Positions 29,441 through 50,714 of a DNA stretch of 64,000 nucleotides are shown here, piece after piece. The notes under the pieces are model-generated. The model was given only the letters and a program-made list of their open reading frames with translations. It searched no databases and had not been told where the DNA came from. Both the position numbers and the translations under genes were made by a program. Source of the DNA: Spironucleus salmonicida (Eukaryota). How positions within the stretch are numbered: the first letter of the stretch is position 1; every line of letters starts with the position of its first letter. The stretch covers positions 1,054,001 to 1,118,000 of the forward strand of contig NC_090598.1 of assembly GCF_000497125.1 (NCBI RefSeq), written 5' to 3'.

Positions 29441-30733
29441 CCAGGACAGTACGCCACTTGCGACGACGAGTGGGCTGGAGGGGCCCTGCTCCCTCCGCCG
29501 GGTGAGCTTCCCTCTTCTGGCTCATTATCAGCTGCAATGCACTATTTATTACATACGATAATACATCTGCGGTTTCTGCCGTGGCCAATACTGCGCGGTA
29601 ACCGCGGGGAAGTCCGCCCAGCAGGAAGTGCAGGCTCACTTCCAGCCCTGCAGCAAGCACCCGGTCGTGATCACGTTGGTTGCCTGCCCACGCTCCTGGC
29701 GCCGGCCTAGTGGCAAAATTCCACACTCCACAATGAACTTCGGGCTCTGCGCTTCCTGCGGCGGACACATGGAGATCGTCTACTGCGACGGGCACTGCTC
29801 GCGGGCGTTCTGCGAGCCCTGCATCAACCGAGCGCTGGGCGGCAACCTGTCCCCCCTCTACGCTAACACCGACGCCGAGTTCCTCTGCTACTCGTGCCTG
29901 CGGGGCGAGAAGCGGTGCTGGCTCTGCGGCAGCGGGACCAACCAGCGCGGCGGCTTCGGCATCTTCACCTGCCGGGCGTGCGGCGCCAGGAGTGAGGAGT
30001 GCGGCACGTGCGAGTCCGACGCGCCGGTGGTCACCTGCTACTTCTGCCTCGCCTCCTTCCACACGGCGTGCTCGGAGGGCGTGCAGCTGGACGACAACGA
30101 GGGCGACCTGGTGGTGGGGATCTGCCAGGCCTGTGCGGGGGCGGCTGGCACGGACTTCGTCGGCGACGGGACCCTCCGCGCGGACCTGCACTGCTACCAG
30201 GGCCTGATCGTCCGCGGCTCGCTGTTCGGGGAGTTCTGCGCCGAGTTCTGGCCGGAGATTCAGCGGGTCCCCTTCGACGCCGCGCGGCAGCGAGAGATGT
30301 GCGACCTGATCAGCCTGGACCGGGACGCCGCGCTGCTGGACACGGTGCCGGACATCCTGAACTGCCTGGGCCTCCGGAACTACGACCTGGACTTCCTGGG
30401 CTGGCTGGTGATCGCGGTCAGGGGCGTGTTCGAGGCCCTGGCGGCCGACCAGTGCTTCTACGACGTGGTGGAGGCGCGGCTGGAGCCCCACAAGAAGAGC
30501 GCTGCCGAGCTCGCCAGGCGGGCTGTCCGGGTGGTGCACGACGACTGAGCCCTGGCGCCTCCCCTGGGCGTTCTTTCCCTTCCACTCCCGCATTCCATTG
30601 CGCGCATATACGAGCGTCCACCTATGCTCTCTGCAACTTTCCGGGAGAAACCGGCGCGAAGAACCACATCCCGCATTCGGAGCATCTGGGCCCCTCCAGC
30701 CCACTCGTCGTCGCAAGTGGCGTACTGTCCTGG
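29441..30733 (+). mobile_element. 1293-bp TIR cassette (putative non-autonomous TTAA-specific DNA transposon), copy 1
   Basis: Perfect 46-bp inverted repeats 29441-29486 / 30688-30733 (CCAGGACAGTACGCCACTTGCGACGACGAGTGGGCTGGAGGGGCCC), TTAA on both sides, GC-rich island in AT-rich DNA. Confidence 0.75.
29733..30548 (+). CDS. tandem PHD/ADD-like zinc-finger protein, 271 aa (cassette cargo)
   Basis: CASCGG..YCDGHCSRAFCEPCI...FLCYSC..CWLC...CRAC..CGTC..CYFCLASFHTAC..CQAC; C-rich motif before ATG. Confidence 0.82.
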   Translation: MNFGLCASCGGHMEIVYCDGHCSRAFCEPCINRALGGNLSPLYANTDAEFLCYSCLRGEKRCWLCGSGTNQRGGFGIFTCRACGARSEECGTCESDAPVVTCYFCLASFHTACSEGVQLDDNEGDLVVGICQACAGAAGTDFVGDGTLRADLHCYQGLIVRGSLFGEFCAEFWPEIQRVPFDAARQREMCDLISLDRDAALLDTVPDILNCLGLRNYDLDFLGWLVIAVRGVFEALAADQCFYDVVEARLEPHKKSAAELARRAVRVVHDD

Positions 30734-31824
30734 TTAATTTTACGACAAATATTATATAGGTTAAGAAAATTAAGCATAAAATTTATTCTAGTATCGTCAG
30801 AATCTGATATATAAAAAATACTATATTAAGCTAAGAAATTACAAAGTTTACTAAGCAAACCGTAGATGCAAACGGAACTAAACCTAAATTCTACCAATTA
30901 GCAAAACTAAAATATCTTACTTTGAGTAACATTAATCCGTTAATCAAGTAATTAAAAATTAATAGTGGATAAGCAAAATAAGAGTTGATTTAAACAGATA
31001 TTTCGTAAATTATCTGTTAACAGTCGGTAAATCTGCTTGCATTAAACTTTAACTTAAAACAACTAAAGAGATCTATAAAATGTAATTACCGAATGTACAG
31101 TATTAATAAAACTATAAGTTTGTTACCAGTAAATTCAACAGGTTGTCAACTTTGATTTTTCTAGACTAAAAAATTGATTTAGGTGAAAATAAGTCTTATG
31201 TAAGCTGACCGTAAACCTTAGCATAAAATATTGAACTAGTTATCTACCTATCGCATTATCTGCAAATACTCCACCTAAAATTGAATTTGCTAATTCAAAT
31301 TCAGCTTCACAACGGCAACAGACTCAAATAATTAATATAGCACTGTTTCAAGTAAGCTCGATATAGTAGGAATAGTTTAGCGCCATCAGCCAGGCTATGT
31401 TCCATGGTATGAGGATTTTGCAGCTGACCCTATCACCGAAACAAATCAAAACTGCACGGTGAGTGACTACACTATCAGGGCGCATATCTAATTTCCGGGA
31501 TAGCTGTGGGTGAACCTGCAAGTGATAAATGTGGACTCATTGGACTTATCATCATTAGGTGCAGAAATTAACCGATATGATGTGACGAACCAGCAGCTGC
31601 GACGGTCCTAAATATGTGGGACTGCTGACGGTACTTCAGAACCGCGAATTCGCTTGTCAATGGCAGGAAACTGCTGTAGTCGTCATCGTGTCCTGCATTT
31701 TGCAAGCACTGAATATGCTAGACCTGTGTTACGTGGAATATCTTGACTGACTGTGGTACGGGCTTACAACTGGTCAGATTTTTTAATTTCGCCGCATCAG
31801 GCGTGTAAATTGCTACTCAGCTCC

Positions 31825-32454
31825 TCACTCAATCGCTAACTCTCTTCTGAACTACGCCACTGCCGCTAATTCCTAGTCATTCAAGTACACTACACAGGGC
31901 CAGTTTCTGCCGTAGCCGTTGCAGTCCAGGCCGTATCCCAGCAACCAAATGTCGGGGAGGCTGGCATTCCCCAGAAATTTGACAGTGCCGACGGCTCCCA
32001 TGTCCTTCGCAAATGCGACGCATATTTCTCCGCCTTTCAGCAGCTTCTAGACCGCCAGAACGGAGTTTCCGGTGTCCCAGAGTTCATCAACGATTAGCAC
32101 ATTTTCGGCACTTCGTATTTCATCTGTAACACCCGTGATCTTCGCATCTTGCTACTCGGTCCCCTGATAGGAAGACACTTTTATGAAGGAAACGCGAACT
32201 GGAATGGAAAGACGTCTTGTGATATCAGATACAATGTGGTAGGCACCGGTTAGGAGTCCTACGATGTACAAAGGGTTGGATTCCGTTACTATGTCTTTGT
32301 AGTGATTTTCAATATTTCTTGCTAGCTTTTCGACGATAAACTGGACCTCTTCTATAGTAAGAAGCAGATGAGCATTTGACTTAAGGTTATATTGTGCTCT
32401 TATCCCAGCCGTTATCTCAGAGATTGGCCGGTTTGTTACCTTGCAGGTCGACAT
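31825..32454 (-). CDS. hypoxanthine/guanine phosphoribosyltransferase, copy 1, 209 aa
   Basis: GLLTGA, KVSSY, PRPP loop VLIVDELWDTGNS, WLLGYGLD; ends GAG TGA. Confidence 0.9.
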
Positions 32455-32772
32455 TATTAAATGAATGTTAAAAAATGATAATAATATAATCGTTTTTATA
32501 TGTAAATAGATAAAAAGAAATAACAAACCACAAAATTTGAACCACAAAACATAAATAAAAATGATATAAATATATATGTTTAGTATGTAACTTTTAAGTT
32601 AATTCTGAGTACTAGATGAAAATTACTAGTATTCAACCTGAGTTTTCAATAATGATAATGATATTTGGGGCATAATAAGTATATATATCTTGGGAACCAA
32701 TTTTCAGAACCACAAATTTCATCATGTAGATCTACTAAAATACGTATATATAAACCGAGTCCCACCCCCAAA
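32455..32772. promoter_or_regulatory. putative bidirectional AT-rich promoter (phosphoribosyltransferase / CofE-like)
   Basis: 318-bp AT-rich spacer between divergent ATGs; TATATATAAA then CCCACCCCCAAAATG. Confidence 0.55.
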
Positions 32773-33945
32773 ATGCTAGGCGTTGTGTCCCGCGGCATCC
32801 GCGCCCCGATCATCAAGCAGGGCGACGACCTCCGGGCCATCGTGGTCGATACCGTGCTCAAGGCGGCCCAGGAGAGCTCCGTGACCCTCCAGGACCGCGA
32901 CGTGGTCTGCATCACCGAGTCCGTCGTCGCCCGCGCCCAGGGCAACTACGCCTCCACGGCTGCCATCGCGGCCGACGTCCGCGCCAAGACCGGCGGCGGC
33001 ACGGTGGGGCTGGTGTTCCCCATCATGTCCCGGAACCGCTTCTCGATGCTGCTCAAGGGCATCGCGCAGGGCGTGGACAAAGTGGTCATCCAGCTGTCCT
33101 ACCCTGCGGACGAGTAGGGTGATGCCCTGTTTCCGATAGAAGAGTTGCTCGCGAAAAATATCAACCCCCACTGCGACAACTTTACCGAGGTGGAGTTCAG
33201 GAAGCACTTTCCATCCACAGTTTTAAAGTATACCGGCGTGGACTACATTAACCTCTACAAAGACATCGCCGGCCCCAACTGCGAGATAGTGCTGAGCAAC
33301 GACCCCGCGCACATCCTCGCCTACACCGACGTCGTCATCGCCGCGGACATCCACTCCCGCGGGCGCACCAAGCAGCGCCTGCTCAGCCAGGGCGCGCGGA
33401 CCGTGCTCTGCCTGGACGACCTGCTCACAGCCAGCGTGGACGGCTCCGGCTTCCAGCCCCAGTTCGGGCTCCTCGGCAGCAACCTCGCCCGGGACGACCA
33501 GGTGAAGCTCTTCCCCCGCGACTCGCAGGCCCTGGTCGAGCAGATCCAGGCTGACCTCCTGGCCCGCACCGGCAGGACGCTCGAGGTCATGGTCTTCGGC
33601 GACGGCGCCTTCAAGGACCCCGTCGGCGGCATCTGGGAGCTGGCGGACCCCGTGGTGAGCCCCGGCTTCACGGCGGGTCTCGGCGGGCTCCCCAACGAGA
33701 TCAAGCTCAAGTACGCCGCGGACAACGAGCTGGACGGGCTGCGCGGCCCGGAGGCGGAGCAGGCCATGCGCGCCCTCATCAGGCGCAAGAGCGCGGACCT
33801 GGTGGGCAGCATCGCCGCGCAGGGCACCACGCCCCGGGCGCTGACGGACCTGCTCGGGAGCCTGGCGGACCTCACCACGGGCAGCGGCGACAAGGGCACC
33901 CCGTTCGTGCTGATCCAGAACTACTTCAAGAGCTACGCCGAGTGA
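32773..33945 (+). CDS. F420-0:gamma-glutamyl ligase-like (CofE family, bacterial type), copy 1, 390 aa
   Basis: SRGIRAPIIKQGDDL, ITESVVARAQGNY, GDGAFKDPVGGIWELADP, SLADLTTGSGDKGTP; one internal TAG (33115) read as Gln. Confidence 0.85.
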
Positions 33946-34003
33946 CGTTTTCCTGCTTATCGCGAGGTGCCGCGGGAGACGACCCGAGTGACACGAAAGA
34001 AGC

Positions 34004-34318
34004 TCACGGAATACCGGCCAGCCCCACGAACAGGGCGAACACCAGGTTGCTGATGACGCCGAAGAACACGCCGACGCGCAGCTCCCCGGGCATGCTGTCG
34101 TGCAGCACGAAGGGGAACGCCAGGACGTTGAACACGAGCCCCACGAGGATCCCGCACACGATCGTCAGCATCTTCTGGAAGCTGCTCATGACGCGGTTCA
34201 CCGGCTGCACGGCGTTCCCCGGCCCCTCCAGGTTCCTCTCCCGCGCGAGCTGCCACAGGTTCTGACCGTTCTGGCCGTCGCTCTGCCACTCCACCTCCAG
34301 CTTGAGCGGCGTCAGGGG
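34004..34318 (-). pseudogene. 3' fragment of the DSC3-like gene (full copy 51946-52947)
   Basis: Matches the C-terminal ~105 codons, then switches to unrelated sequence at 34319; 9-bp deletion. Confidence 0.85.
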
Positions 34319-34371
34319 AGTGCGGGCCGCAGCTAGGGGCTGTCTGCGCTCCTTTTCCGCTCGCACCAAAA

Positions 34372-35862
34372 ATGACAGATGGTGCGCGCGCGGCAGACCG
34401 CGGCGGGGATGCTCCCCCAGAGTCCCAGGGCCTCCTGACTGCCACGCTGCCGGCCGCAGCCGAGCTTCCCGATCCCTCCGTAGCGCACCTCTCGCTCGAC
34501 GGCAGGTGGGACGCCGCAGTGCGCCTGGACGCTCTGACCAGCCTGGCCCTCGCCGATATGGACGGGACGGAGCCGCTCAGGTGCGCGGAGAGCGTGCGCG
34601 ATCTGCGGCTGGAGCGCGTGAGCGGCAAGATGGATGTCGGCCCCGCCCTCGCCAGGCTCACCATCGTCGACTCGCCCATTGTGTGCCGCAACCCCCACGG
34701 CGGCGACCTCCCGAACCTGACCGAGGTGGTCATATCATGTACGTCAAAGGAGTTTTCAGAACCCTGCGAATTGGCCAGCAACTGGCAGCCGCTGCTCAAC
34801 ATACTATAGGGGGCGAAATAGCTGAAGAACATGACACTGAATCGTAGCGGTACGCCTTACGCTAGTGCGCCGGATATGTCCGGACTTAGATAGCTGGAGA
34901 TGCTAGCTCTCAATGGAATAACTGGCAGTATCTACTTTCCCCCCAGCCTGCGGAGCGTCACCCTCACGAAGTGTACCGATTCGGTCTTCTAGTGCGATGC
35001 CGATTCGCTACCGGACCTCCGATATATCTGTCTCGACCTTATAAAGTGTGATTAATTATCCTTGGATAGAATATTGGGAAGGGCGAACGGGTTACGCAGT
35101 CTGACGTTGACATATAACGATTCATTTTACTATGATTATGTAATGTGTCCACCATAAATATCTAGACTGAAATAGCTTGAGACGCTGGTACTTGATGGAA
35201 TGAAGGGCGATATCTACTTTCACCCCAGCCTGCGGAGCGTCACCCTCACGCAGTGTTCTGTTAATAAATTCTACTGCGATGCCGATTCGCTGCCGGACCT
35301 ACGAGATATATTCCTGAGCCACGTGACCTATGTAAGCACCTCCATGGCCAGGGTGCTGTAGCTAGCACACGGGCTCCAGCGGCTTATCGTGCGCGGAACC
35401 GCTGAGAACAGCACCACGGTCTTGGCGCTCTACCTGCAGCCCTCGGTCGTGGTGCTGGAGCTCGATAGGGTGCGTCTGGGCCGCCTGGTCCTGGTCGGTG
35501 CCCCGTGCGTGGAGCGGCTCCGGCTCTGCAACATCCGCATCACGCCGGACCAACTGCCGGCGCTAGCCAGGCTGGTGAGGGTCAGGACGGTCATGCATCT
35601 GAACGTTAGCCACATTGGGGCGGGCTCCGGGCAGCAGGATACCGCCAGCCTGTAGCAGTTCGCGCTCCCGGCCTTCATCCGGAGGCCTGGTGTGGACATT
35701 GAGCTGGCCGTCCAGGTGGGGCAGCGGTACGTCCAGCGGGGCAGCATGGTGTACCAGGAGGACGATTCCCAGCCGGTGGCGCTGCCAACGCGGCTGGCGG
35801 CGTTCGTGTACCGGCAGAAGATCGAGCCGCTGGGCGTCCTGTGCGGGGCGCTGGTGGAGTGA
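34372..35862 (+). CDS. leucine-rich repeat protein, intact copy, 496 aa
   Basis: Continuous frame under table 6; LxxLxL repeats; internal 282-bp tandem module (YFPPSLRSVTLT..C....F.CDADSLPDLR); ends GAG TGA. Confidence 0.85.
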
Positions 35863-35887
35863 GCCGCTTCGAATCGCTCCGCTCCCA

Positions 35888-36466
35888 ATGCGGCCCTTCT
35901 CGCGGCCCCTCGCAGCGTACGACCAGCGCCTGCGCTCGCGCCAGCCCACGCAGCCCTGCCGGCCGCTCTTCGGCTACCTGCTGTGCGAGTACTTCGCGCA
36001 CGTGCAGCAGCGGCACCGCGGGCTCCCGGCGGACGAGTACATCACGGCGTGCGAGCAGCGCCTGCAGGCCCTGGGCGTGGAGGCCGGTGCGCGCCTCTGG
36101 GAGCAGTTCTGCCTGCGCCGCCTCGAGAGCACGGACCGCGGTGTGCGCGCGCCCCTCGACCTCGGCTCGGCCCAGGACGTGCTGAACGCCGTGCGCGCGC
36201 CCTTCTGGGCCTTCCTCTTCGGCGAGGACGAGCGCCGCGACGTGCAGCAGCTGCGCCTGAAGGACAACAACGGCTTCTACCTGATCGAGCGCGAGCCCGC
36301 CACCGACCAGTACATCTCCTTCCCCCGCGACTACTCCGGCATCCAGCCCAGCGCGGTGCTCAGCGGCGTCATCCGCGCGGTCCTCGGCTGCTGCGGCTTC
36401 GAGAGCGCCGTGAAGGTGTTCCTGAGCGAGGGCCTCACCTACTACGAGGTCGTCCTCCACGAGTGA
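35888..36466 (+). CDS. TRAPP complex subunit Trs31/TRAPPC5-like, copy 1, 192 aa
   Basis: LFGYLLCEY, RLQALGVEAGARL, FWAFLFG, LIEREPATDQYISFPRD, GVIRAVL..CGF. Confidence 0.85.
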   Translation: MRPFSRPLAAYDQRLRSRQPTQPCRPLFGYLLCEYFAHVQQRHRGLPADEYITACEQRLQALGVEAGARLWEQFCLRRLESTDRGVRAPLDLGSAQDVLNAVRAPFWAFLFGEDERRDVQQLRLKDNNGFYLIEREPATDQYISFPRDYSGIQPSAVLSGVIRAVLGCCGFESAVKVFLSEGLTYYEVVLHE

Positions 36467-36481
36467 TTTCCGCTCCCCACA

Positions 36482-37183
36482 ATGCGCTCCCTCACCGCCG
36501 CCCAGCTCCGCGCCGCCATCGGGCTCGTGCCGCTCATCCCGCCGCCCGAGTTCGAGGCAGCCGTACGCACCAGGCGGCCCGCGCTGTTCGTGACGCCCGG
36601 GGCGTACCAGCTGCTGTACGACGCCGTCACCGCCCTGCCCAAGCAGCTGGTGCTCGCCGCCGCCCGCCACACGCTCGTCGTCGGCCAGGACACCGGCCCC
36701 GAGCTCCCCGACGAGACGCTCCGCACGCTGCAGGCCGCGGACCGGCATGCGCTGTGGGTCCGCGCCGGCGTGTCCAAGGTGCAGCTGCAGGCCATGCTCG
36801 CGGCGGACTTCCCGGGGCGGCGCGCGAGGCCCGTGACGCTGACGATGCGCGGGCAGCAGGGCGGCCAGGCGCAGGCCAACCTGGTGTTCCTGGCCGCGCT
36901 CCGCCCCGCGCTGCCCTTCTGCGCCCGCGAGCTGTACCCCACCGGCGGGATGGGCGGCTACCCCGGCAGCCAGGCGCGCACGCACTTCGCCGCGAACTTC
37001 TGGCTGCACCTGCTGCTGCGCGGCGAGCTCTCGGGCCAGCTCGCGGCGTCGCTCCCCGAGGGCCGCGCGCACGGGGGCCAGGCGGAGTACCCCTCGGACA
37101 AGACGCCCCACGTGGCGGCCCTGCAGGAGCACCTGGAGCACGTGGTGCACGCGCGCGTGGCGGCCTTCCTGGGCTCCGAGTGA
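36482..37183 (+). CDS. hypothetical protein, copy 1, 233 aa
   Basis: C-rich motif + ATG, strong GC3 bias, ends GAG TGA. Confidence 0.72.
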   Translation: MRSLTAAQLRAAIGLVPLIPPPEFEAAVRTRRPALFVTPGAYQLLYDAVTALPKQLVLAAARHTLVVGQDTGPELPDETLRTLQAADRHALWVRAGVSKVQLQAMLAADFPGRRARPVTLTMRGQQGGQAQANLVFLAALRPALPFCARELYPTGGMGGYPGSQARTHFAANFWLHLLLRGELSGQLAASLPEGRAHGGQAEYPSDKTPHVAALQEHLEHVVHARVAAFLGSE

Positions 37184-37191
37184 CCGCATGC

Positions 37192-37560
37192 TCACTCCAC
37201 CAGCGCCACCGTCCGTCCGGCGTACTCCAGTAGCATCTGGGCCGGCCCGCTGTCCGGCGGCCTGCGGTGGAAGTAGGTCACTTGCAGCAGCGCGCCCGGT
37301 CCGGTAGGGCCCAGTGCCCGCAGGATGCCCGCGCAGCTCGCCTTGCTGAGGTGCTCCAGCTCGGCCCTGCGCTGCCGGCTGCGGGTCTGCACCCAGAACC
37401 GCGGCGCGGGCGGGCGGAGGCGCAGCGGCTGCAGGGCCGTCCAGAGCGCGCGGACCAGCCCGTCCACCAGCACCTGCCGCCCCAGCTGCAGCCTCAGCAC
37501 GCGGTACGGCTGCCTCCCCCCGACCCTGACCGTAAGCTGGGCGTGCACCATTTCGCTCAT
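37192..37560 (-). CDS. hypothetical basic protein, copy 1, 122 aa
   Basis: MSEMVHAQLTVRVGG...; GC3 bias; ends GAG TGA; start at the edge of the duplicated arm. Confidence 0.65.
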   Translation of the reverse strand: MSEMVHAQLTVRVGGRQPYRVLRLQLGRQVLVDGLVRALWTALQPLRLRPPAPRFWVQTRSRQRRAELEHLSKASCAGILRALGPTGPGALLQVTYFHRRPPDSGPAQMLLEYAGRTVALVE

Positions 37561-37615
37561 TTCAGAGGCACTACTATTAGATAATATTAGTGGCAAATTT
37601 CCATTAGTCCCAAAA

Positions 37616-40048
37616 ATGAGCACGCCAGAGCTGCAGTCAGAGATCATGAAGCATCTGCTGTCACTCGGCGGCGTCTACCTACCATCAAGCACCATAATTT
37701 CGCAGACGCGGCTCCCGGCGTCCGTCCAGGCCCCCTGGGACTTCCTCACCTTCGACTCCACGCTCAACCACGCCGAGGAGGCGCAGGATGTACCCGAAAA
37801 TGAAAAATTCACACAGCAGCAGCCGAAATTGAAGAGCACGATCTTGAAGAGCACAGCGCCCAACATTTTGAACCTCTTCACCCCGGAGCCGCAATGTTCA
37901 AACTTCACGTTCAACGTATCAGAATACGCGCTGTACGTCGGCCAGCAGCTGAACCAGCAGCTTACGCAGAAGCTCCCGAAGGACACGGTGTTCCACTACC
38001 TGGTGTCGCTGGCCCAGAAGCCGTTCCAGCACTGCAAGGCCGCGAAGTCCGACATCGCCTTCGACGCGAAGTTCGAGTCCTCAAACCTCTTCCAGGTCTT
38101 CAAATTCGCGGGGACGACCACCTACGAGCTCTACCTGTTCCCGGACTACCGGCAGATCAGCGGCGGCTTCTGGTGGTTCTTCGGCGTCCAGGGCGGCGCG
38201 AAGGGCGCGAAGTACCAGTTCCGCATCAACAATTTCAGCCAAATGCGCCTCCCGAACGGGTACCGGATGCTCGTTTTCAGGGAGGGCGCGGGGTGGCACA
38301 GGAGCGCGTTTTGCGGCGTCAGCGGCTCGGCGAGCCGGATGCTCAAGACCGCTGAGTACTACGAGAACATTCTGAACGAAAACCGGAACCAAATCGTCGA
38401 AAAAGTCGTCAAAAACGCGAAAAATGCTAACGTGGAAAAGGCAGCTTACAGCTTCATTTTCGACGTGGAAATGGACCAGGAAACGCTGTATTTCGCGAGC
38501 AACTATCCCTACACGTACACGCAGTACATCAACTACGCAAATTCGCTCAGGGAGTTCAAATTCATCAAACTGAAGAAGCTGACGAACTCTGAGTGCTTCA
38601 ATCAGGTGCCGTTTATCGAAATCGACCGGACGCAAAATCCGAAATACGTGATCGTCATCTCAGCCAGAATCCACAGCCAGGACACAAGCGGCAACTACGC
38701 GATCGAGGGCTTTATCGACTTCTTGCTGGGCCGAAAGGACCACATTTTCGAAAAACAGTGCGAGATGATCACCGACGAGGACGAAAAAGTGCGCTACAGG
38801 CAGTTCATGAAGCAGCTAACGAACTACCAGCAGCTGATCCTGAACAATTTCGTTATCGCCATTTTCCCGCTCGTGAACATAGACGCGGTGATCCTCGGAA
38901 ATTCTACCAAAAACTTCGACGGCGTAAATCTCAACAAAGCCGAGCCGATTCTGGCGCAAAACCAGACGTTCAGGGCCATGGGTGCCCAGATTTAGAAGTA
39001 CGTAGACCAGAACCTCCAAATAACGCACTCTTTCGACTTCGCGGAGTCGATTTCGAGCCCGGAAATCAAAATTCAGACCTTCGAAAAGGTGTCCAATACG
39101 GCGCTAACCTAGAAGTTCTGGCAGACGGCCGGAGCCGCAGGCTTCCTGCCGTTCGTGGACTCAGCACAGCACCTGCAGAGCTACTTCGACGAGGAGTCGG
39201 TGAGCCGCGTCGAGCAGGACGGCGTATCGACGGATAAGCTCAAAGGCGATCAGGAGCATGTCGCAGCTGCGCAGTAGGAGGTTGTGGCAGAGCTCAAAAC
39301 ATTTGAGGCCGAGAACGGCGCCCTGGGCGAGTTCGTGCTGCCGGCGCTGATCGCACAGTTCAGCCGCCAGATTATGCAGAAATACGAGTTCAAATTCGAG
39401 CATTTGTCGGTAGTTTCGGCGGTGGAAAAAGAGGGCTTCGGCGCGATTTTGAGCAAGAAATACGGTTGCAGGTTCGCTTTCAAGGTTTATTTGAGCCAAT
39501 TCTACGGAAAAACCGATAAAAGCGATATTTCAAAATGTAATTATTTCGATATATAAGACTATTAAAATTTTGGAATTACATTGGCAGCTTCGATCGCTAG
39601 GCAGGTTAAAGATGATTTTGAGCTTTTCGACGAAATATTAGAGGATCTATAGGCCTAGTACGCGAACTGGCTCGGTGAGTCTCTCAAGATTGCGGTTACG
39701 CGCTAGGGCACACTATCGCTGCTGAAATCGAAAGATCTGGGGCCCTCATGCCAGAAAATGATGAAATTTAAACTCTGGGCGCTTGCGAAGAAGTCGGACA
39801 TTCAGTTGAAGACACTGGACAAGATCAACCATGCGATCGACCTGAACCTGATCTTCGACCTCAGGCAGGAGCTGAAGCTGTTGACAGATTCTGAGGAGGA
39901 GTGGGACGTTGATATCGTAATTGATCCGGAATAAGTAAGAGATGACAAACTCAAAATGAGCGATATCATAAAGTAATGGTACCCTGTGCCGGAAAAAAAG
40001 AAGAAAAAAGGTAAAAAAGGTAAAAAAGGAAAGAATACCAAAAAGTGA
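37616..40048 (+). CDS. cytosolic carboxypeptidase (M14D/CCP/Nna1 family) homolog, probably inactive, 810 aa
   Basis: FDAKFESSNL, WWFF, NYPYTY, ISARIH, FPLVNIDAVILGN; Lys-rich tail; ends AAG TGA. Confidence 0.85.
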
Positions 40049-40538
40049 GCTGATCTGGTTTCTGTATTGGAGAAAGCCTATTATGATAGGAAGGAGCTAC
40101 CAGCTACCACTACATGGTGTAATATCCAAAATATGATATGTTTCGGCGTATGTGAGTCTATTCCGAGCGTTTCTTCGGTTCAGTTATTGAACATTATTTC
40201 TAGCAGCCTGCACTGCCTGGTGAACCTTGGATGTAACATATTATCAATATCCGATAATATAATACTAGAACTGTTTAAACAACACTAAACTGAGGATTGC
40301 GGTGAATGTACAATTAGCTTAGTCTAGCTGTAGTTGGGTGGTGGCCTGATAAAATATAGCAGTTATAGACAGGAAATTTTGCAATTCTGGAGCATCGGCT
40401 CGGTAATTTGGAGTAGAATTACCTATATTTATCTTCAAGAATCAATTTTTTTGCCAGTCCATCCTATGCTGCAAAAATAAAGTTATTGAATTTAAAGTGC
40501 ACAATAGAATATATAATAAGTGTAAAATTTTCACTGAA

Positions 40539-40907
40539 ATGAGCGAAATGGTGCACGCCCAGCTTACGGTCAGGGTCGGGGGGAGGCAGCCGTACCGCGT
40601 GCTGAGGCTGCAGCTGGGGCGGCAGGTGCTGGTGAACGGGCTGGTCCGCGCGCTCTGGACGGCCCTGCAGCCGCTGCGCCTCCGCCCGCCCGCGCCGCGG
40701 TTCTGGGTGCAGACCCGCAGCCGGCAGCGCAGGGCCGAGCTGGAGCACCTCAGCAAGGCGAGCTGCGCGGGCATCCTGCGGGCACTGGGCCCTACCGGAC
40801 CGGGCGCGCTGCTGCAAGTGACCTACTTCCACCGCAGGCCGCCGGACAGCGGGCCGGCCCGGATGCTTCTGGGGTACGCCGGGCGGACGGTGGCGCTGGT
40901 GGAGTGA
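40539..40907 (+). CDS. hypothetical basic protein, copy 2, 122 aa
   Basis: Inverted copy of 37192-37560 with 3 aa differences. Confidence 0.65.
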   Translation: MSEMVHAQLTVRVGGRQPYRVLRLQLGRQVLVNGLVRALWTALQPLRLRPPAPRFWVQTRSRQRRAELEHLSKASCAGILRALGPTGPGALLQVTYFHRRPPDSGPARMLLGYAGRTVALVE

Positions 40908-40915
40908 GCATGCGG

Positions 40916-41617
40916 TCACTCGGAGCCCAGGAAGGCCGCCACGCGCGCGTGCACCACGTGCTCCAGGTGCTCCTGCAGGGCCGCCACGTGGGGCGTCTTG
41001 TCCGAGGGGTACTCCGCCTGGCCCCCGTGCGCGCGGCCCTCGGGGAGCGACGCCGCGAGCTGGCCCGAGAGCTCGCCGCGCAGCAGCAGGTGCAGCCAGA
41101 AGTTCGCGGCGAAGTGCGTGCGCGCCTGGCTGCCGGGGTAGCCGCCCATCCCGCCGGTGGGGTACAGCTCGCGGGCGCAGAAGGGCAGCGCGGGGCGGAG
41201 CGCGGCCAGGAACACCAGGTTGGCCTGCGCCTGGCCGCCCTGCTGCCCGCGCATCGTCAGCGTCACGGGCCTCGCGCGCCGCCCCGGGAAGTCCGCCGCG
41301 AGCATGGCCTGCAGCTGCACCTTGGACACGCCGGCGCGGACCCACAGCGCATGCCGGTCCGCGGCCTGCAGCGTGCGGAGCGTCTCGTCGGGGAGCTCGG
41401 GGCCGGTGTCCTGGCCGACGACGAGCGTGTGGCGGGCGGCGGCGAGCACCAGCTGCTTGGGCAGGGCGGTGACGGCGTCGTACAGCAGCTGGTACGCCCC
41501 GGGCGTCACGAACAGCGCGGGCCGCCTGGTGCGCACGGCTGCCTCGAACTCGGGCGGCGGGATGAGCGGCACGAGCCCGATGGCGGCGCGGAGCTGGGCG
41601 GCGGTGAGGGAGCGCAT
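40916..41617 (-). CDS. hypothetical protein, copy 2, 233 aa
   Basis: Protein identical to 36482-37183. Confidence 0.72.
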   Translation of the reverse strand: MRSLTAAQLRAAIGLVPLIPPPEFEAAVRTRRPALFVTPGAYQLLYDAVTALPKQLVLAAARHTLVVGQDTGPELPDETLRTLQAADRHALWVRAGVSKVQLQAMLAADFPGRRARPVTLTMRGQQGGQAQANLVFLAALRPALPFCARELYPTGGMGGYPGSQARTHFAANFWLHLLLRGELSGQLAASLPEGRAHGGQAEYPSDKTPHVAALQEHLEHVVHARVAAFLGSE

Positions 41618-41632
41618 TGTGGGGAGCGGAAA

Positions 41633-42211
41633 TCACTCGTGGAGGACGACCTCGTAGTAGGTGAGGCCCTCGCTCAGGAACACCTTCACGGCGCTCTCGA
41701 AGCCGCAGCAGCCGAGGACCGCGCGGATGACGCCGCTGAGCACCGCGCTGGGCTGGATGCCGGAGTAGTCGCGGGGGAAGGAGATGTACTGGTCGGTGGC
41801 GGGCTCGCGCTCGATCAGGTAGAAGCCGTTGTTGTCCTTCAGGCGCAGCAGCTGCACGTCGCGGCGCTCGTCCTCGCCGAAGAGGAAGGCCCAGAAGGGC
41901 GCGCGCACGGCGTTCAGCACGTCCTGGGCCGAGCCGAGGTCGAGGGGCGCGCGCACACCGCGGTCCGTGCTCTCGAGGCGGCGCAGGCAGAACTGCTCCC
42001 AGAGGCGCGCACCGGCCTCCACGCCCAGGGCCTGCAGGCGCTGCTCGCACGCCGTGATGTACTCGTCCGCCGGGAGCCCGCGGTGCCGCTGCTGCACGTG
42101 CGCGAAGTACTCGCACAGCAGGTAGCCGAAGAGCGGCCGGCAGGGCTGCGTGGGCTGGCGCGAGCGCAGGCGCTGGTCGTACGCTGCGAGGGGCCGCGAG
42201 AAGGGCCGCAT
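41633..42211 (-). CDS. TRAPP subunit Trs31/TRAPPC5-like, copy 2
   Basis: One aa difference (VQQL vs VQLL) from 35888-36466. Confidence 0.85.
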   Translation of the reverse strand: MRPFSRPLAAYDQRLRSRQPTQPCRPLFGYLLCEYFAHVQQRHRGLPADEYITACEQRLQALGVEAGARLWEQFCLRRLESTDRGVRAPLDLGSAQDVLNAVRAPFWAFLFGEDERRDVQLLRLKDNNGFYLIEREPATDQYISFPRDYSGIQPSAVLSGVIRAVLGCCGFESAVKVFLSEGLTYYEVVLHE

Positions 42212-42236
42212 TGGGAGCGGAGCGATTCGAAGCGGC

Positions 42237-43735
42237 TCACTCCACCAGCGCCCCGCACAGGACGCCCAGCGGCTCGATCTTCTGCCGGTACACGAACACC
42301 ACCAGCCTCGTTGGCAGCGCCACCGGCTGGGAATCGTCCTCCTGGTACACCATGCTGCCCCGCTGGACGTACCGCTGCCCCACCCGGACGTCCAGCTCAA
42401 TGTCCATACCAGGCCTCCGGATGAAGGCCGGGAGCGCGAACTGCTACAGGCTGGCGGTATCCTGCCGCCCGGAGCCCGCCCCAATGTGGCTAACGTTCAG
42501 ATGCATGACCGTCCTGACCCTCACCAGCCTGGCTAGCGCCGGCAGTTGGTCCGGCGTGGTGCGGATGTTGCAGAGCCGGAGCCGCTCCACGCACGGGGCA
42601 CCGACCAGGACCAGGCGGTCCAGACGCACCATATCGAGCTCCAGCACCACGACCGAGGGCTGCAGGTAGAGCTCCAAGATCGTGGTGCTGTTCTTAGCGG
42701 TTCCGCGCACGATAAGCCGCTGGAGCCCGTGTGCTAGCTGCAGCACCCTAGCCAAGGAGGTGCTTACATAGGTCACGTGGCTCAGGAATATATCTCGTAG
42801 GTCCGGCAGCGAATCGGCATCGCAGTAGAAGATCGAATTGATGCAATCCGTGAGGGTGACGCTCCGCAGGCTGGGGCGAAAGTAGATATCGCCCTTTATT
42901 CCGACAAGGACCAGCGTCTTCAGCTATGTCAGTCTAGATATTTATGGTGGACACATTTCATAATCATAATCATCATCTTAATATGTACTTATAGATTTCA
43001 ACGTCAGGCTCTGCAACCCATGAGCCATATTCAATAGTCTATTCAAGGAACGTTAATCATACTACACATCATCGAGGAAGATCTCTCGCAGGTCCGGCAG
43101 CGAATCGGCATCGCACTAGAAGTTATTAACAGAACACAACGTGAGGGTGACGCTCCGCAGGCTGGGGGGAAAGTAGACACTCCCAGTTATTCCATTGAGA
43201 GCTAGCATCTCCAGCTATCTAAGTCCGGACATATCCGGCGCACTCGCGTAAGGCGTACCGCTACGATTCAGTGTCATGTTCTTCAGCTATTTCGCCCCCT
43301 ATAGTATGTTGAGCAGCGGCTGCCAGTTGCTGGCCAATTCGCAGGGTTCTGAAAACTCCTTTGACGTACATGATATGATCACCTCGGTCAGGTTCGGGAG
43401 GTCGCCGCCGTGGGGGTTGCGGCACATAATGGGCGAGTCGACGATGGTGAGCCTGGCGAGGGCGGGCCGACATCCATCTTACCGCTCACGCACTCCAGCC
43501 GCAGATCGCGCACGTTCTCCGCGCACCTGAGCGGCTCCGTCCCGTCCATATCGGCGAGGGCCAGGCTGGTCAGAGCGTCCAGGCGCACTGCGGCGTCCCA
43601 CCTGCCGTCGAGCGAGAGGTGCGCTACGGAGGGATCGGGAAGCTCGGCTGCGGCCGGCAGCGTGGCAGTCAGGAGGCCCTGGGACTCTGGGGGAGCATCC
43701 CCGCCGCGGTCTGCTGCGCGCGCACCATCTGTCAT
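42237..43735 (-). pseudogene. LRR protein copy 2, 1-bp frameshift near 43465, divergent central repeats
   Basis: GGCCCGCCCTC versus GGCCCCGCCCTC in copy 1; downstream frame is open; may be a homopolymer sequencing error. Confidence 0.65.
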
Positions 43736-43788
43736 TTTTGGTGCGAGCGGAAAAGGAGCGCAGACAGCCCCTAGCTGCGGCCCGCACT

Positions 43789-44112
43789 CCCCTGACGCCG
43801 CTGCGGGCGCTCAAGCTGGAGGTGGAGTGGCAGAGCGACGGCCAGAACGGCCAGAACCTGTGGCAGCTCGCGCGGGAGAGGAACCTGGAGGGGCCGGGGA
43901 ACGCCGTGCAGCCGGTGAACCGCGTCATGAGCAGCTTCCAGAAGATGCTGACGATCGTGTGCGGGATCCTCGTGGGGCTCGTGTTCAACGACCTGGCGTT
44001 CCCCTTCGTGCTGCACGACAGCATGCCCGGGGAGCTGCGCGTCGGCGTGTTCTTCGGCGTCATCAGCAACCTGGTGTTCGCCCTGTTCGTGGGGCTGGCC
44101 GGTATTCCGTGA
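43789..44112 (+). pseudogene. 3' fragment of the DSC3-like gene, copy 2
   Basis: Same junction as 34318; V-to-D change in a TM helix. Confidence 0.85.
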
Positions 44113-44170
44113 GCTTCTTTCGTGTCACTCGGGTCGTCTCCCGCGGCACCTCGCGATAAGCAGGAAAACG

Positions 44171-45343
44171 TCACTCGGCGTAGCTCTTGAAGTAGTTCTG
44201 GATCAGCACGAACGGGGTGCCCTTGTCGCCGCTGCCCGTGGTGAGGTCCGCCAGGCTCCCGAGCAGGTCCGTCAGCGCCCGGGGCGTGGTGCCCTGCGCG
44301 GCGATGCTGCCCACCAGGTCCGCGCTCTTGCGCCTGATGAGGGCGCGCATGGCCTGCTCCGCCTCCGGGCCGCGCAGCCCGTCCAGCTCGTTGTCCGCGG
44401 CGTACTTGAGCTTGATCTCGTTGGGGAGCCCGCCGAGACCCGCCGTGAAGCCGGGGCTCACCACGGGGTCCGCCAGCTCCCAGATGCCGCCGACGGGGTC
44501 CTTGAAGGCGCCGTCGCCGAAGACCATGACCTCGAGCGTCCTGCCGGTGCGGGCCAGGAGGTCAGCCTGGATCTGCTCGACCAGGGCCTGCGAGTCGCGG
44601 GGGAAGAGCTTCACCTGGTCGTCCCGGGCGAGGTTGCTGCCGAGGAGCCCGAACTGGGGCTGGAAGCCGGAGCCGTCCACGCTGGCTGTGAGCAGGTCGT
44701 CCAGGCAGAGCACGGTCCGCGCGCCCTGGCTGAGCAGGCGCTGCTTGGTGCGCCCGCGGGAGTGGATGTCCGCGGCGATGACGACGTCGGTGTAGGCGAG
44801 GATGTGCGCGGGGTCGTTGCTCAGCACTATCTCGCAGTTGGGGCCGGCGATGTCTTTGTAGAGGTTAATGTAGTCCACGCCGGTATACTTTAAAACTGTG
44901 GATGGAAAGTGCTTCCTGAACTCCACCTCGGTAAAGTTGTCGCAGTGGGGGTTGATATTTTTCGCGAGCAACTCTTCTATCGGAAACAGGGCATCACCCT
45001 ACTCGTCCGCAGGGTAGGACAGCTGGATGACCACTTTGTCCACGCCCTGCGCGATGCCCTTGAGCAGCATCGAGAAGCGGTTCCGGGACATGATGGGGAA
45101 CACCAGCCCCACCGTGCCGCCGCCGGTCTTGGCGCGGACGTCGGCCGCGATGGCAGCCGTGGAGGCGTAGTTGCCCTGGGCGCGGGCGACGACGGACTCG
45201 GTGATGCAGACCACGTCGCGGTCCTGGAGGGTCACGGAGCTCTCCTGGGCCGCCTTGAGCACGGTATCGACCACGATGGCCCGGAGGTCGTCGCCCTGCT
45301 TGATGATCGGGGCGCGGATGCCGCGGGACACAACGCCTAGCAT
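44171..45343 (-). CDS. F420-0:gamma-glutamyl ligase-like (CofE family), copy 2
   Basis: Translated fragments identical to copy 1. Confidence 0.85.
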
Positions 45344-45661
45344 TTTGGGGGTGGGACTCGGTTTATATATACGTATTTTAGTAGATCTACATGATGAAAT
45401 TTGTGGTTCTGAAAATTGGTTCCCAAGATATATATACTTATTATGCCCCAAATATCATTATCATTATTGAAAACTCAGGTTGAATACTAGTAATTTTCAT
45501 CTAGTACTCAGAATTAACTTAAAAGTTACATACTAAACATATATATTTATATCATTTTTATTTATGTTTTGTGGTTCAAATTTTGTGGTTTGTTATTTCT
45601 TTTTATCTATTTACAAATAAAAACGATTATATTATTATCATTTTTTAACATTCATTTAATA

Positions 45662-46291
45662 ATGTCGACCTGCAAGGTAACAAACCGGCCAATCTCTGAG
45701 ATAACGGCTGGGATAAGAGCACAATATAACCTTAAGTCAAATGCTCATCTGCTTCTTACTATAGAAGAGGTCCAGTTTATCGTCGAAAAGCTAGCAAGAA
45801 ATATTGAAAATCACTACAAAGACATAGTAACGGAATCCAACCCTTTGTACATCGTAGGACTCCTAACCGGTGCCTACCACATTGTATCTGATATCACAAG
45901 ACGTCTTTCCATTCCAGTTCGCGTTTCCTTCATAAAAGTGTCTTCCTATCAGGGGACCGAGTAGCAAGATGCGAAGATCACGGGTGTTACAGATGAAATA
46001 CGAAGTGCCGAAAATGTGCTAATCGTTGATGAACTCTGGGACACCGGAAACTCCGTTCTGGCGGTCTAGAAGCTGCTGAAAGGCGGAGAAATATGCGTCG
46101 CATTTGCGAAGGACATGGGAGCCGTCGGCACTGTCAAATTTCTGGGGAATGCCAGCCTCCCCGACATTTGGTTGCTGGGATACGGCCTGGACTGCAACGG
46201 CTACGGCAGAAACTGGCCCTGTGTAGTGTACTTGAATGACTAGGAATTAGCGGCAGTGGCGTAGTTCAGAAGAGAGTTAGCGATTGAGTGA
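45662..46291 (+). CDS. hypoxanthine/guanine phosphoribosyltransferase, copy 2
   Basis: Inverted copy of 31825-32454. Confidence 0.9.
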
Positions 46292-47382
46292 GGAGCTGAG
46301 TAGCAATTTACACGCCTGATGCGGTGAAATTAAAAAATCTGACCAGTTGTAAGCCCGTACCACAGTCAGTCAAGATATTCCACATAACACAGGTCTAGCA
46401 TATTCAGTGCTTGCAAAATGCAGGACACGATGACGACTACAGCAGTTTCCTGCCATTGACAAGCGAATTCGCGGTTCTGAAGTACCGTCAGCAGTCCCAC
46501 ATATTTAGGACCGTCGCAGCTGCTGGTTCGTCACATCATATCGGTTAATTTCTGCACCTAATGATGATAAGTCCAATGAGTCCACATTTATCACTTGCAG
46601 GTTCACCCACAGCTATCCCGGAAATTAGATATGCGCCCTGATAGTGTAGTCACTCACCGTGCAGTTTTGATTTGTTTCGGTGATAGGGTCAGCTGCAAAA
46701 TCCTCATACCATGGAACATAGCCTGGCTGATGGCGCTAAACTATTCCTACTATATCGAGCTTACTTGAAACAGTGCTATATTAATTATTTGAGTCTGTTG
46801 CCGTTGTGAAGCTGAATTTGAATTAGCAAATTCAATTTTAGGTGGAGTATTTGCAGATAATGCGATAGGTAGATAACTAGTTCAATATTTTATGCTAAGG
46901 TTTACGGTCAGCTTACATAAGACTTATTTTCACCTAAATCAATTTTTTAGTCTAGAAAAATCAAAGTTGACAACCTGTTGAATTTACTGGTAACAAACTT
47001 ATAGTTTTATTAATACTGTACATTCGGTAATTACATTTTATAGATCTCTTTAGTTGTTTTAAGTTAAAGTTTAATGCAACCAGATTTACCGACTGTTAAC
47101 AGATAATTTACGAAATATCTGTTTAAATCAACTCTTATTTTGCTTATCCACTATTAATTTTTAATTACTTGATTAACGGATTAATGCTACTCAAAGTAAG
47201 ATATTTTAGTTTTGCTAATTGGTAGAATTTAGGTTTAGTTCCGTTTGCATCTACGGTTTGCTTAGTAAACTTTGTAATTTCTTAGCTTAATATAGTATTT
47301 TTTATAGATCAGATTCTGACGATACTAGAATAAATTTTATGCTTAATTTTCTTAACCTATATAATATTTGTCGTAAAATTAA

Positions 47383-50396: not shown

Positions 50397-50714
50397 TATT
50401 AAATGAATGTTAAAAAATGATAATAATATAATCGTTTTTATTTGTAAATAGATAAAAAGAAATAACAAACCACAAAATTTGAACCACAAAACATAAATAA
50501 AAATGATATAAATATATATGTTTAGTATGTAACTTTTAAGTTAATTCTGAGTACTAGATGAAAATTACTAGTATTCAACCTGAGTTTTCAATAATGATAA
50601 TGATATTTGGGGCATAATAAGTATATATATCTTGGGAACCAATTTTCAGAACCACAAATTTCATCATGTAGATCTACTAAAATACGTATATATAAACCGA
50701 GTCCCACCCCCAAA

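What the first reader, a model, noticed from the sequence alone, without database searches (positions are those of the whole stretch)
34930..35270. Hypervariable, apparently module-swapped LRR core inside near-identical duplicated arms
Seen: the two LRR copies (34372-35862 and 42237-43735) lie in arms where neighbouring proteins differ by 0-3 aa, yet about 115 central codons differ by roughly 37 substitutions plus a 3-aa indel (hand count). Framework blocks (PSLRSVTLT, CDADSLPDLR, MCPPQISRL) are invariant and changes cluster between them. The CSVN(K/N)F segment is in repeat 2 of copy 1 but repeat 1 of copy 2, while CTDSVF/CINSIF shows the reciprocal placement. Inference: segmental gene conversion or shuffling between LRR modules using conserved DNA anchors, plus diversifying selection. 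This is analogous to variable LRR receptor systems and is a candidate recognition or antigenic-variation repertoire.
Basis: partly seen in the sequence, partly recalled or inferred. Interest (0 to 1): 0.85.

Follow-up and report, generated by a model that had tools for sequence, protein, structure and literature searches.

The report
Recombined repeat modules in duplicated LRR genes
Two mirror-image copies of a leucine-rich-repeat gene in the salmon parasite Spironucleus salmonicida differ in their middle because their 94-residue repeat modules were reshuffled by ordinary recombination, not because the middle is a specially hypervariable recognition site.

Summary
The window is Spironucleus salmonicida DNA (TAA/TAG = Gln). 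Two inverted LRR genes lie in 6.9-kb palindrome arms that differ by about 0.2-0.4%. A ~306-nt core differs by about 26%: 33 amino-acid changes and a net 3-residue indel in 113 codons. A 27-nt anchor is identical in all four modules. The 24-nt patch behind it shows 7 'swapped' site patterns against 18 'positional' ones in the lead (Fisher p = 9e-6). Both cores occur, with no differences, in contigs of four public runs.

Synonymous divergence in the core is ten times that of the flanks (dS 0.29 vs 0.02-0.03) and dN/dS is 0.75. That points to different ancestry, not diversifying selection. Paralogues carry 1, 2, 3, 4 or 7 modules and every combination of lead, patch and tail types, so modules recombine at the anchors. 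The simplest path is two different one-module deletions from a three-module ancestor.

The proteins show no signal peptide or membrane segment, and the family is small. A second duplicated pair differs by 1 residue in 946. Verdict: ordinary LRR module shuffling; an antigen-receptor-like repertoire is not supported.

The parts
34372..35862 (+). LRR gene copy 1, intact, 496 codons under table 6; modules A (34870-35151) and B (35152-35433)
   Evidence: Pfam PF24758, 40.1 bits (cut-off 27)
42237..43735 (-). LRR gene copy 2, frame shifted after codon 90 by a C run one base shorter (~43467); modules A (43238-42948, 97 codons) and B (42947-42666)
34942..34968 (+). anchor 1 (PSLRSVTLT), copy 1 module A; identical 27 nt also at 35224-35250, 42849-42875 (-) and 43140-43166 (-)
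   Evidence: 0 of 9 codons differ synonymously, against 6 of 13 in the lead
34969..34992 (+). patch of copy 1 module A: KCTDSVFQ (type I)
35251..35274 (+). patch of copy 1 module B: QCSVNKFY (type V); 20/24 nt identical to the copy 2 module A patch
43116..43139 (-). patch of copy 2 module A: LCSVNNFQ (type V, in the position where 3 of the 3 other genes with an L1-type first module have type I)
42825..42848 (-). patch of copy 2 module B: DCINSIFY (type I, in the last module, where 4 of the 4 other genes have type V)
   Evidence: a read variant at 42839 would give D for N
34993..35009 (+). anchor 2 (CDADSL...), copy 1 module A; also at 35275-35291, 42808-42824 (-) and 43099-43115 (-)
34592..35801 (.). 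zone of raised divergence between the copies: flanks at 2.4-3.5% around the ~26% core (34969-35274)
30688..37565 (.). left palindrome arm (PRTase, F420-ligase-like, LRR, TRAPP-like, one more ORF)
40534..47428 (.). right palindrome arm, the reverse complement of the left arm
37566..40533 (.). unique spacer holding a gene with weak, below-cut-off matches to M14 carboxypeptidase
48630..52269 (.). third copy of the outer 3.64-kb unit; it carries no LRR gene

Best explanation
The two genes belong to a small Spironucleus-specific family of LRR proteins that are probably intracellular. Their middle is a tandem array of 94-residue modules. Each module forms about four LRR turns and has the layout lead, anchor 1 (PSLRSVTLT), 8-codon patch, anchor 2 (CDADSLPDLR), tail.

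Modules recombine with each other at the anchors. This changes module number and creates mosaics. The 'hypervariable core' is mostly an in-register comparison of modules that are not orthologous.

The most parsimonious path assumes an ancestor with three modules: L1-I-T1 | L2-V-T2 | L3-I-T3. Each palindrome copy lost one module through a different unequal recombination. Copy 1 recombined between the anchor 2 sites of modules 2 and 3, giving L1-I-T1 | L2-V-T3. Copy 2 recombined between the anchor 1 sites of modules 1 and 2, giving L1-V-T2 | L3-I-T3.

The rest of the arms stays nearly identical, most likely through arm-to-arm gene conversion. Conversion is impeded at and near the heterologous core, which leaves a 2-3% halo.

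Shown: the mosaic pattern, the anchors, the module-number series and the raised synonymous divergence. Inferred: the three-module ancestor, arm-to-arm conversion and the intracellular location. I put about 0.8 on 'recombination between modules at the anchors' in general. The confidence given below is for the differential-deletion path.
For: Site patterns. The 75-nt lead has 18 positional and 0 swapped sites. The 24-nt patch has 7 swapped and 1 positional. Fisher p = 9e-6.

Predictions of the deletion path that are met:
- c1B and c2A patches match at 20/24 nt and share a Ser codon that the paralogues lack.
- c1A and c2B are both type I but less alike (17/24).
- Lead A matches at 73/75 nt, lead B only at 67/75.
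- Tails B match at 38/42 aa, tails A only at 17/42.
- At lead position 7, c1B has K, as do all 3 internal (neither first nor last) modules of the paralogues. c2B has T, as does the last module of SS50377_27753.

Tail tree. c1A groups with 27753 module 1 (support 83/85). Forcing c1A and c2A together costs 14.1 lnL (p-AU 0.055). The terminal tails of c1 and c2 are sisters.

Divergence. Core dS is 0.293, against 0.029 and 0.019 in the flanks; core dN/dS is 0.75.

Module numbers. Family members have 496, 590 and 684 aa with exact 94-aa periods, and a 946-aa member has 7 modules.

Combinations. L1/L2 x I/V and I/V x T2/T3 each show all four combinations.

Anchor 1. It is identical at 27/27 nt in all four modules. 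None of its 9 codons differs synonymously, against 6 of 13 conserved codons in the lead.

Context. The genome paper reports that 19.2% of the genome is duplicated at >=95% identity. It gives GC of 44.7% in duplicated regions against 30.7% elsewhere, and it suggests gene conversion (PMC9509377, whole text read).

Assembly. Both cores are present in contigs of 4 of 4 runs.
Against: - No family member with a type I patch in its last module was seen other than copy 2, and no three-module I-V-I gene was seen.
- The codon after the patch is position-specific: TAG in both A modules and TAC in both B modules. The copy 1 junction would therefore lie in only about 5 nt of identity, or that codon was later overwritten by conversion from the 3' side.
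- The c2A tail has no close relative; the best is 21/42 aa.
- The AU test against a c1A+c2A tail clade is borderline (p = 0.055) on 43 columns.
- The GC3 drop starts near codon 106-121, well upstream of the divergent core, so composition does not simply track the non-homogenised zone.
- Paralogue DNA could not be fetched, so all family-level evidence is from proteins.
- Arm-to-arm conversion is inferred, not observed.
Confidence: 0.5

Rival explanations
1. Serial short-tract gene conversion. Both copies began as canonical two-module genes (I then V). Copy 2 then received at least three separate conversions bounded by the anchors: a V patch into module A, an I patch into module B, and a T2-type tail into module A. 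Donors were its own modules, the other arm paired out of register, or paralogues on other chromosomes.
For: - The patch lies between two stretches identical in all four modules, which suit heteroduplex formation.
- The position-specific codon just 3' of the patch fits a tract confined between the anchors.
- The c2B patch DCINSIF is one residue from the DCIDSIF of module 1 in SS50377_27753 and 27770.
- SS50377_27770 module 2 carries a hybrid patch, DCIVYNF.
- Contigs of 4 of 4 runs carry a variant at 42839 that gives DCIDSIF in the c2B context. This shows a near-identical second sequence or allele.
Against: - It needs three or more events and donors, against two deletions.
- No donor for the c2A tail was found; the best match is 21/42 aa.
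- It does not by itself predict that lead B (67/75) is more diverged than lead A (73/75).
Confidence: 0.3
2. Diversifying selection or targeted hypermutation. After a recent duplication, point substitutions accumulated fast in the core because new binding specificities were favoured.
For: - In the 8-codon patch of module A, nonsynonymous changes dominate (nd 8.5 vs sd 1.5; ratio 1.68).
- If c1B and c2A are orthologous, their 4 differences include 3 nonsynonymous changes.
- The C-flank has 13 nonsynonymous and 3 synonymous differences (ratio 1.66).
Against: - Core dN/dS is 0.75, and core dS is about 10 times the flank dS.
- The patch types and tail types already exist in paralogues, so they were not newly created.
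- The 13:3 count in the C-flank is close to the neutral expectation from 426 nonsynonymous and 162 synonymous sites.
- Nine of the 13 C-flank changes are unique to the frameshifted copy 2, 3 are unique to copy 1 and 1 is ambiguous.
- The duplicated pair SS50377_25207/25175 differs by 1 of 946 residues.
Confidence: 0.07
3. A programmed recognition or antigenic-variation repertoire. LRR cassettes would be copied into expressed genes as a regular process, as in lamprey VLRs or parasite surface-antigen families.
For: - The architecture is modular with conserved anchors.
- Diplomonads do use recombination among surface-antigen genes (PMC7641422, passages read; PMC9509377).
Against: - The N-termini are hydrophilic (KD -1.0 to -1.7). 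The highest 19-residue hydrophobicity is 1.2-1.7 and falls inside LRR strands.
- The window holds no cassette array; the anchor occurs only 4 times in 64 kb.
- Only 5 representatives at E<=0.001 were found among 1.8 billion proteins.
- Copy 2 is frameshifted.
- The second duplicated pair is nearly identical.
Confidence: 0.03
4. Assembly artefact. One divergent core would belong to another family member and have been placed into a collapsed or chimeric palindrome arm.
For: - Short-read contigs break at the anchors, so none links a core to its flanks.
- At 34863, only contigs carrying the copy 2 base were laid, in the 3 runs that cover the site.
Against: - Both cores exist, with no differences, in 4 of 4 runs.
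- The assembly used PacBio reads with an N50 of 14.6 kb, optical maps and Illumina polishing (PMC9509377).
- The annotated paralogues do not match either core.
Confidence: 0.03

Closest known systems
Unequal crossing-over and gene conversion in LRR arrays of plant resistance genes (Cf-2/Cf-5, Cf-4/9, RPP5, Xa21 families; recalled, not read here)
   Same: Tandem LRR units recombine at conserved framework sequence. Paralogues differ in unit number. Blocks are mosaic.
   Different: Here the unit is a 94-residue super-module of about four LRR turns. The family has only about 8 close genes. The proteins lack any sign of secretion or an NB-ARC domain. No excess of nonsynonymous change was found.
Palindromes kept alike by arm-to-arm gene conversion (human Y-chromosome ampliconic palindromes; recalled)
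   Same: Inverted arms are about 99.6-99.8% identical around a unique spacer. The arms are GC-enriched (55-69% GC here, against a genome mean of 33.5% in PMC9509377).
   Different: The arms are far smaller (6.9 kb). One internal segment has escaped homogenisation because its module content differs. Conversion is inferred, not shown.
Giardia VSP gene pairs and segmental gene conversion (PMC7641422, passages read)
   Same: Diplomonad genes occur as identical head-to-head or tail-to-tail pairs with other genes between them. Recombination or segmental conversion among family members has been proposed.
   Different: VSPs are cysteine-rich surface proteins with a signal peptide and a membrane anchor. 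The LRR proteins here have neither.
Lamprey/hagfish variable lymphocyte receptors (recalled)
   Same: LRR modules are joined through short stretches of identity.
   Different: VLRs are built somatically from hundreds of flanking cassettes into an incomplete germline gene, and the products are secreted or anchored. None of these features was found here.

Membership tests
Leucine-rich repeat proteins of the F-box-associated LRR type (Pfam PF24758 LRR_At5g56370) | Profile match above the curated cut-off | tested here: met
   Copy 1 scores 40.1 bits (cut-off 27). The copy 2 reading downstream of the shift scores 50.3 bits. P0002 scores 73.8 and P0006 88.2.
Leucine-rich repeat proteins of the F-box-associated LRR type (Pfam PF24758 LRR_At5g56370) | LRR solenoid fold | tested here: met
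   The AF2 model has pLDDT 85-95 over residues ~170-400, with regular short strands. Foldseek gives 230 PDB matches at E<=0.001; all those listed are LRR proteins such as TLR8, LRRC8 and LIC11098.
F-box proteins (SCF substrate adaptors) | An F-box domain N-terminal to the LRRs | tested here: not met
   No F-box family matched at E<=1 in any of the 4 family proteins or the copy 2 reading that were scanned. The N-terminal 37 residues are modelled at pLDDT <50.
BspA-like / TpLRR surface proteins (Pfam LRR_5) | LRR_5 profile match and, for the surface forms, a membrane anchor | tested here: not met
   LRR_5 is not among the hits at E<=1. No membrane-like segment was found.
VLR-like somatic LRR assembly | Arrays of donor LRR cassettes flanking an incomplete gene | tested here: not met
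   The anchors occur only 4 times in the 64-kb window, all inside the two genes. The rest of the genome could not be searched.
VLR-like somatic LRR assembly | Secreted or membrane-anchored product | tested here: not met
   Hydropathy scan of 7 family proteins. This is a crude method; no dedicated signal-peptide predictor was available.
Diplomonad variant surface families (VSP/CRMP) | Cysteine-rich ectodomain, C-terminal membrane segment and conserved tail | tested here: not met
   The sequences show no CXXC-rich region and no C-terminal hydrophobic segment.
Palindrome homogenised by arm-to-arm gene conversion | Inverted arms near identity around a unique spacer | tested here: met
   Arms are 30688-37565 and 40534-47428, with a 2,968-nt spacer. 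There are 8 substitutions in ~3.6 kb of outer arm and 7 in ~1.7 kb of inner arm.
Palindrome homogenised by arm-to-arm gene conversion | Direct evidence of conversion (tracts, or comparison across strains or species) | not testable with these tools
   No second isolate or outgroup genome was available. The only indirect support is GC3 of 0.8-0.97 in the gene flanks and the GC excess of duplicated regions reported in the paper.

The most novel reading that the evidence does not exclude
The palindrome and the anchors could form a standing device for diversifying an intracellular LRR sensor or adaptor family in a diplomonad. Out-of-register pairing of the inverted copies, or pairing with paralogues, would regularly swap the strand-forming patch behind the PSLRSVTLT strand. 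Clonal populations would then carry many module combinations. The read variant N/D inside the copy 2 patch at 42839 might be a trace of this.
Probability: 0.05. Interest if true: 0.75.

Novelty: new member of a known kind. Interest (0 to 1): 0.3.

Why it matters
This is a clear small-scale example of how tandem LRR modules are reshuffled at short conserved anchors in a diplomonad. It also shows how a palindrome can stay nearly identical except where module content differs. For annotators it is a warning: a 'hypervariable' stretch between near-identical duplicates can come from comparing non-orthologous repeat units. It defines a Spironucleus-specific LRR family with 1 to 7 modules and unknown function, which has not been described in the papers I could search. 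It does not open a new kind of biology.

Tried and rejected
- Whole-genome search for anchors and donor modules: no genome is held for this window. Paralogue DNA could not be fetched, so GENECONV/RDP, per-module DNA trees and site-wise dN/dS were not run.
- Metagenome scan for the 27-nt anchor: 0 hits.
- Expression: no listed holder is on record as RNA. Two runs guessed to be RNA hold contigs of both cores, but this shows nothing firm.
- The frameshift could not be confirmed or refuted from contigs. No indel row appears at ~34641 or ~43467, but cover of those places is not shown.
- Contigs break at the anchors, so they do not link the cores to the arms.
- GC3 as a marker of the non-homogenised zone: rejected as a clean argument, because the GC3 drop begins about 250 nt upstream of the divergent core.
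- Pseudogene decay of copy 2 as the cause of the halo: rejected. Neutral decay cannot exceed the arm background of 0.2-0.4%, and synonymous sites are raised too.
- ESM Atlas: only generic LRR neighbours, plus an FNIP-repeat lead at 0.88, below the level to trust.
- Literature: searches for 'Spironucleus salmonicida' + 'leucine-rich repeat' (6 papers) and 'Spironucleus' + 'gene conversion' (10 papers) found no description of this family or locus. Supplementary tables were not opened, including the LRR counts in PMC11437800, and they might list these genes.

Full report
**What the window is.** Genes read through TAG and TAA as glutamine and end in TGA. GC-rich genes sit in AT-rich DNA. The copy 1 protein is held, letter for letter, on a 1,815,816-bp contig, and its named relatives are all from Spironucleus salmonicida. 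This is a diplomonad that infects salmonids and uses genetic code 6.

**The locus.** Arms 30688-37565 and 40534-47428 form a palindrome around a 2,968-nt unique spacer. The spacer holds a gene with weak, below-cut-off matches to M14 carboxypeptidase families.
- Each arm carries a phosphoribosyltransferase, an F420-0:gamma-glutamyl-ligase-like gene, the LRR gene, a TRAPP-like ORF and one more ORF.
- The outer 3.64 kb occurs a third time at 48630-52269, without an LRR gene.
- Outside the LRR gene the arms differ at 8 positions in ~3.6 kb and 7 in ~1.7 kb.
- Neighbouring proteins differ by 0-4 residues.

**Checking the observation.** Copy 1 (34372-35862) is intact at 496 codons. Copy 2 (42237-43735, minus strand) has a C run one base shorter, which shifts the frame after codon 90. 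The shifted frame stays open to the same stop. No copy 2 protein appeared in the protein search, and the genome paper lists 194 pseudogenes.
- Divergence is about 26% of alignment columns in 34969-35274. It is 2.4-3.5% in a halo from 34592 to 35801, and 1 difference in the first 220 nt of the gene.
- Codons 187-300 hold 33 amino-acid differences and a net 3-residue indel.
- The 27-nt and 17-nt anchors each occur four times and never in shuffles.
- The patch swap is real at the DNA level. In the 75-nt lead, 18 informative sites group modules by position and none by swap. In the 24-nt patch, 7 group them by swap and 1 by position. Fisher p = 9e-6.
- Contigs from four public runs of two studies match each core without a difference, so both cores exist outside this assembly. 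The contigs break at the anchors and do not link cores to arms.

**What the protein is.** Pfam places it in an F-box-associated LRR family (PF24758) above the cut-off, but no F-box is found.
- An AF2 model on an 8-sequence alignment is confident (pLDDT 85-95) over residues ~170-400.
- Each 94-residue module shows four solenoid strands plus two extra strands and a helix. PSLRSVTLT covers strand 195-199, and the patch forms the next strand, 202-207.
- Foldseek returns only LRR solenoids.
- The N-termini are hydrophilic and no 19-residue window looks like a membrane segment. I infer an intracellular protein. This rests on a crude scan.

**The family.**
- Close paralogues on a 1.07-Mb contig have 684, 590 and 489 residues. 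They carry 4, 3 and 1 canonical modules at exact 94-residue periods.
- More distant members are a 586-residue protein and two 946-residue proteins with 7 modules. The two 946-residue proteins differ from each other by one residue.
- Only 5 representatives reach E<=0.001 among 1.8 billion proteins. One of them, P0008, is an unrelated weak hit.
- Remote relatives lie in the window itself at 16005-17087 and 596-3538.

**Why the core differs.** Three results argue against fast point-mutational diversification.
1. Synonymous divergence in the core is 0.293, against 0.029 and 0.019 in the flanks, and core dN/dS is 0.75.
2. The segment types are old and shared.
 - Patches fall into type I (C[IT][DN]S[IV]F) and type V (C[STI]V[NY][NK]F).
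 - Tails fall into T1, T2 and a terminal T3.
 - Leads fall into a first-module type (L1) and a later-module type (L2).
 - The copy 1 module A tail is nearest to module 1 of SS50377_27753 (28/42). It matches the copy 2 module A tail at only 17/42.
 - In a tree it groups with that paralogue (83/85). Forcing the two window tails together costs 14.1 lnL, p-AU 0.055.
3. All four combinations of L1/L2 with I/V, and of I/V with T2/T3, occur among 12 modules. Under a four-gamete argument, this requires recombination in or near each anchor.

Anchor 1 is identical at all 27 nt in the four modules. None of its 9 codons differs synonymously, while 6 of 13 conserved codons in the lead do. This suggests homogenisation at the DNA level.

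**Most parsimonious path.** Assume an ancestor L1-I-T1 | L2-V-T2 | L3-I-T3 that loses one module in two different ways.
- Recombination between the anchor 2 sites of modules 2 and 3 gives copy 1 (L1-I-T1 | L2-V-T3).
- Recombination between the anchor 1 sites of modules 1 and 2 gives copy 2 (L1-V-T2 | L3-I-T3).

This accounts for the apparent reciprocal swap without any reciprocal exchange. It also predicts the following, all of which are observed:
- The two V patches are near-identical (20/24 nt) and share a Ser codon.
- The two I patches are only loosely alike (17/24).
- Lead A (73/75) is closer than lead B (67/75).
- Tails B are orthologous (38/42) and tails A are unrelated (17/42).

Points against this path:
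- No I-V-I gene was seen.
- The position-specific codion after the patch needs a very short junction or later conversion.

It remains plausible at about 0.3. The copy 2 module B patch is one residue from the paralogues' module 1 patch, and a variant at 42839 in all four runs would make it identical to that patch at the protein level.

**The halo and the arms.** The 2.4-3.5% halo is not bounded by the gene: the first 220 nt of the gene hold a single difference. Synonymous sites are raised too. I read the halo as reduced arm-to-arm conversion next to a heterologous core. This is an inference.
- The genome paper reports that 19.2% of the genome is duplicated at >=95% identity. Duplicated regions have 44.7% GC against 30.7% elsewhere, and the authors suggest gene conversion (PMC9509377, whole text read).
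- Within the gene, GC3 is 0.81 and 0.89 in the N- and C-terminal parts and 0.58 in the module region, falling to 0.33.
- Glutamine codons switch from CAG (13 of 15) in those parts to TAG/TAA (8 of 9) in the module region.
- The GC3 drop starts upstream of the divergent core, so I do not use it as proof.
- Of the 13 C-flank replacements, 9 are unique to copy 2, 3 are unique to copy 1 and 1 is ambiguous. This fits relaxed constraint on a frameshifted copy but is not significant.

**Comparison with known systems.**
- The behaviour matches unequal crossing-over and conversion in LRR arrays of plant resistance genes, and palindromes kept alike by arm-to-arm conversion (both recalled).
- It also matches the paired, recombining VSP genes of Giardia (PMC7641422, passages read).
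- It fails the tests for a VLR-like or surface-antigen system. There are no cassette arrays in the window, no secretion or anchor signals, and the family is small. The second duplicated pair shows no divergent core.
- Two literature searches found no description of this family. Supplementary tables were closed.

**Verdict.** This is a real and statistically clear mosaic, explained by ordinary recombination between repeat modules. It is a new member of a known kind, of modest interest.

Noticed in passing
window 30688-34326, 43790-47428, 48630-52269: A 3.64-kb unit carrying a phosphoribosyltransferase and an F420-0:gamma-glutamyl-ligase-like gene (Pfam E = 7e-53) is present three times. The ligase-like proteins are identical. 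This family is unusual in a eukaryote, so the gene may have been acquired from prokaryotes.
   Followed up: partly
window 16005-17087 (+), 596-3538 (-), 14259-14603: AT-rich distant relatives of the LRR family (21-35% identity in tblastn) share its C-terminal part. The broader family therefore has members of ordinary genome composition close to the GC-rich palindrome.
   Followed up: partly
window 42839: In all 4 runs, contigs carry both T and C here at similar depth, with the variant 31 nt from the contig end, like a bubble. On the gene strand it changes N to D inside the copy 2 module B patch (DCINSIF to DCIDSIF). It is either an allele or a further near-identical family sequence.
   Followed up: no
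window 34863: Only contigs with G (the copy 2 base) were laid here, in the 3 runs that cover the site; none shows the assembly's T. Contigs can drop variants, so this is only a flag for a read pile-up.
   Followed up: no
window 34372-35862: Codon usage changes within one gene. GC3 is 0.81 and 0.89 with CAG glutamine codons in the N- and C-terminal parts. It is 0.58 (minimum 0.33) with TAG/TAA glutamine codons in the module region.
   Followed up: partly
window 34304 / 43803-43811: A 9-nt indel lies at the junction between the triplicated outer unit and the inner arm. Copy 2 and the third copy agree with each other here against copy 1.
   Followed up: no
window 40049: A contig of one run guessed to be RNA ends one base past the stop codon of the spacer gene (37325-40048) and runs straight into Illumina adapter sequence. 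This fits a very short 3' UTR.
   Followed up: no
P0006 / P0009 (SS50377_25207 / 25175, on another contig): Two 946-residue, 7-module family members differ by a single residue (M438L). This duplicated LRR pair has no divergent core.
   Followed up: yes
window 43000-43030 (copy 2 module A tail): The extra 3 residues of copy 2 lie in a run of GAT/TAT-rich codons (DDDYDY). That looks like replication slippage rather than recombination.
   Followed up: no
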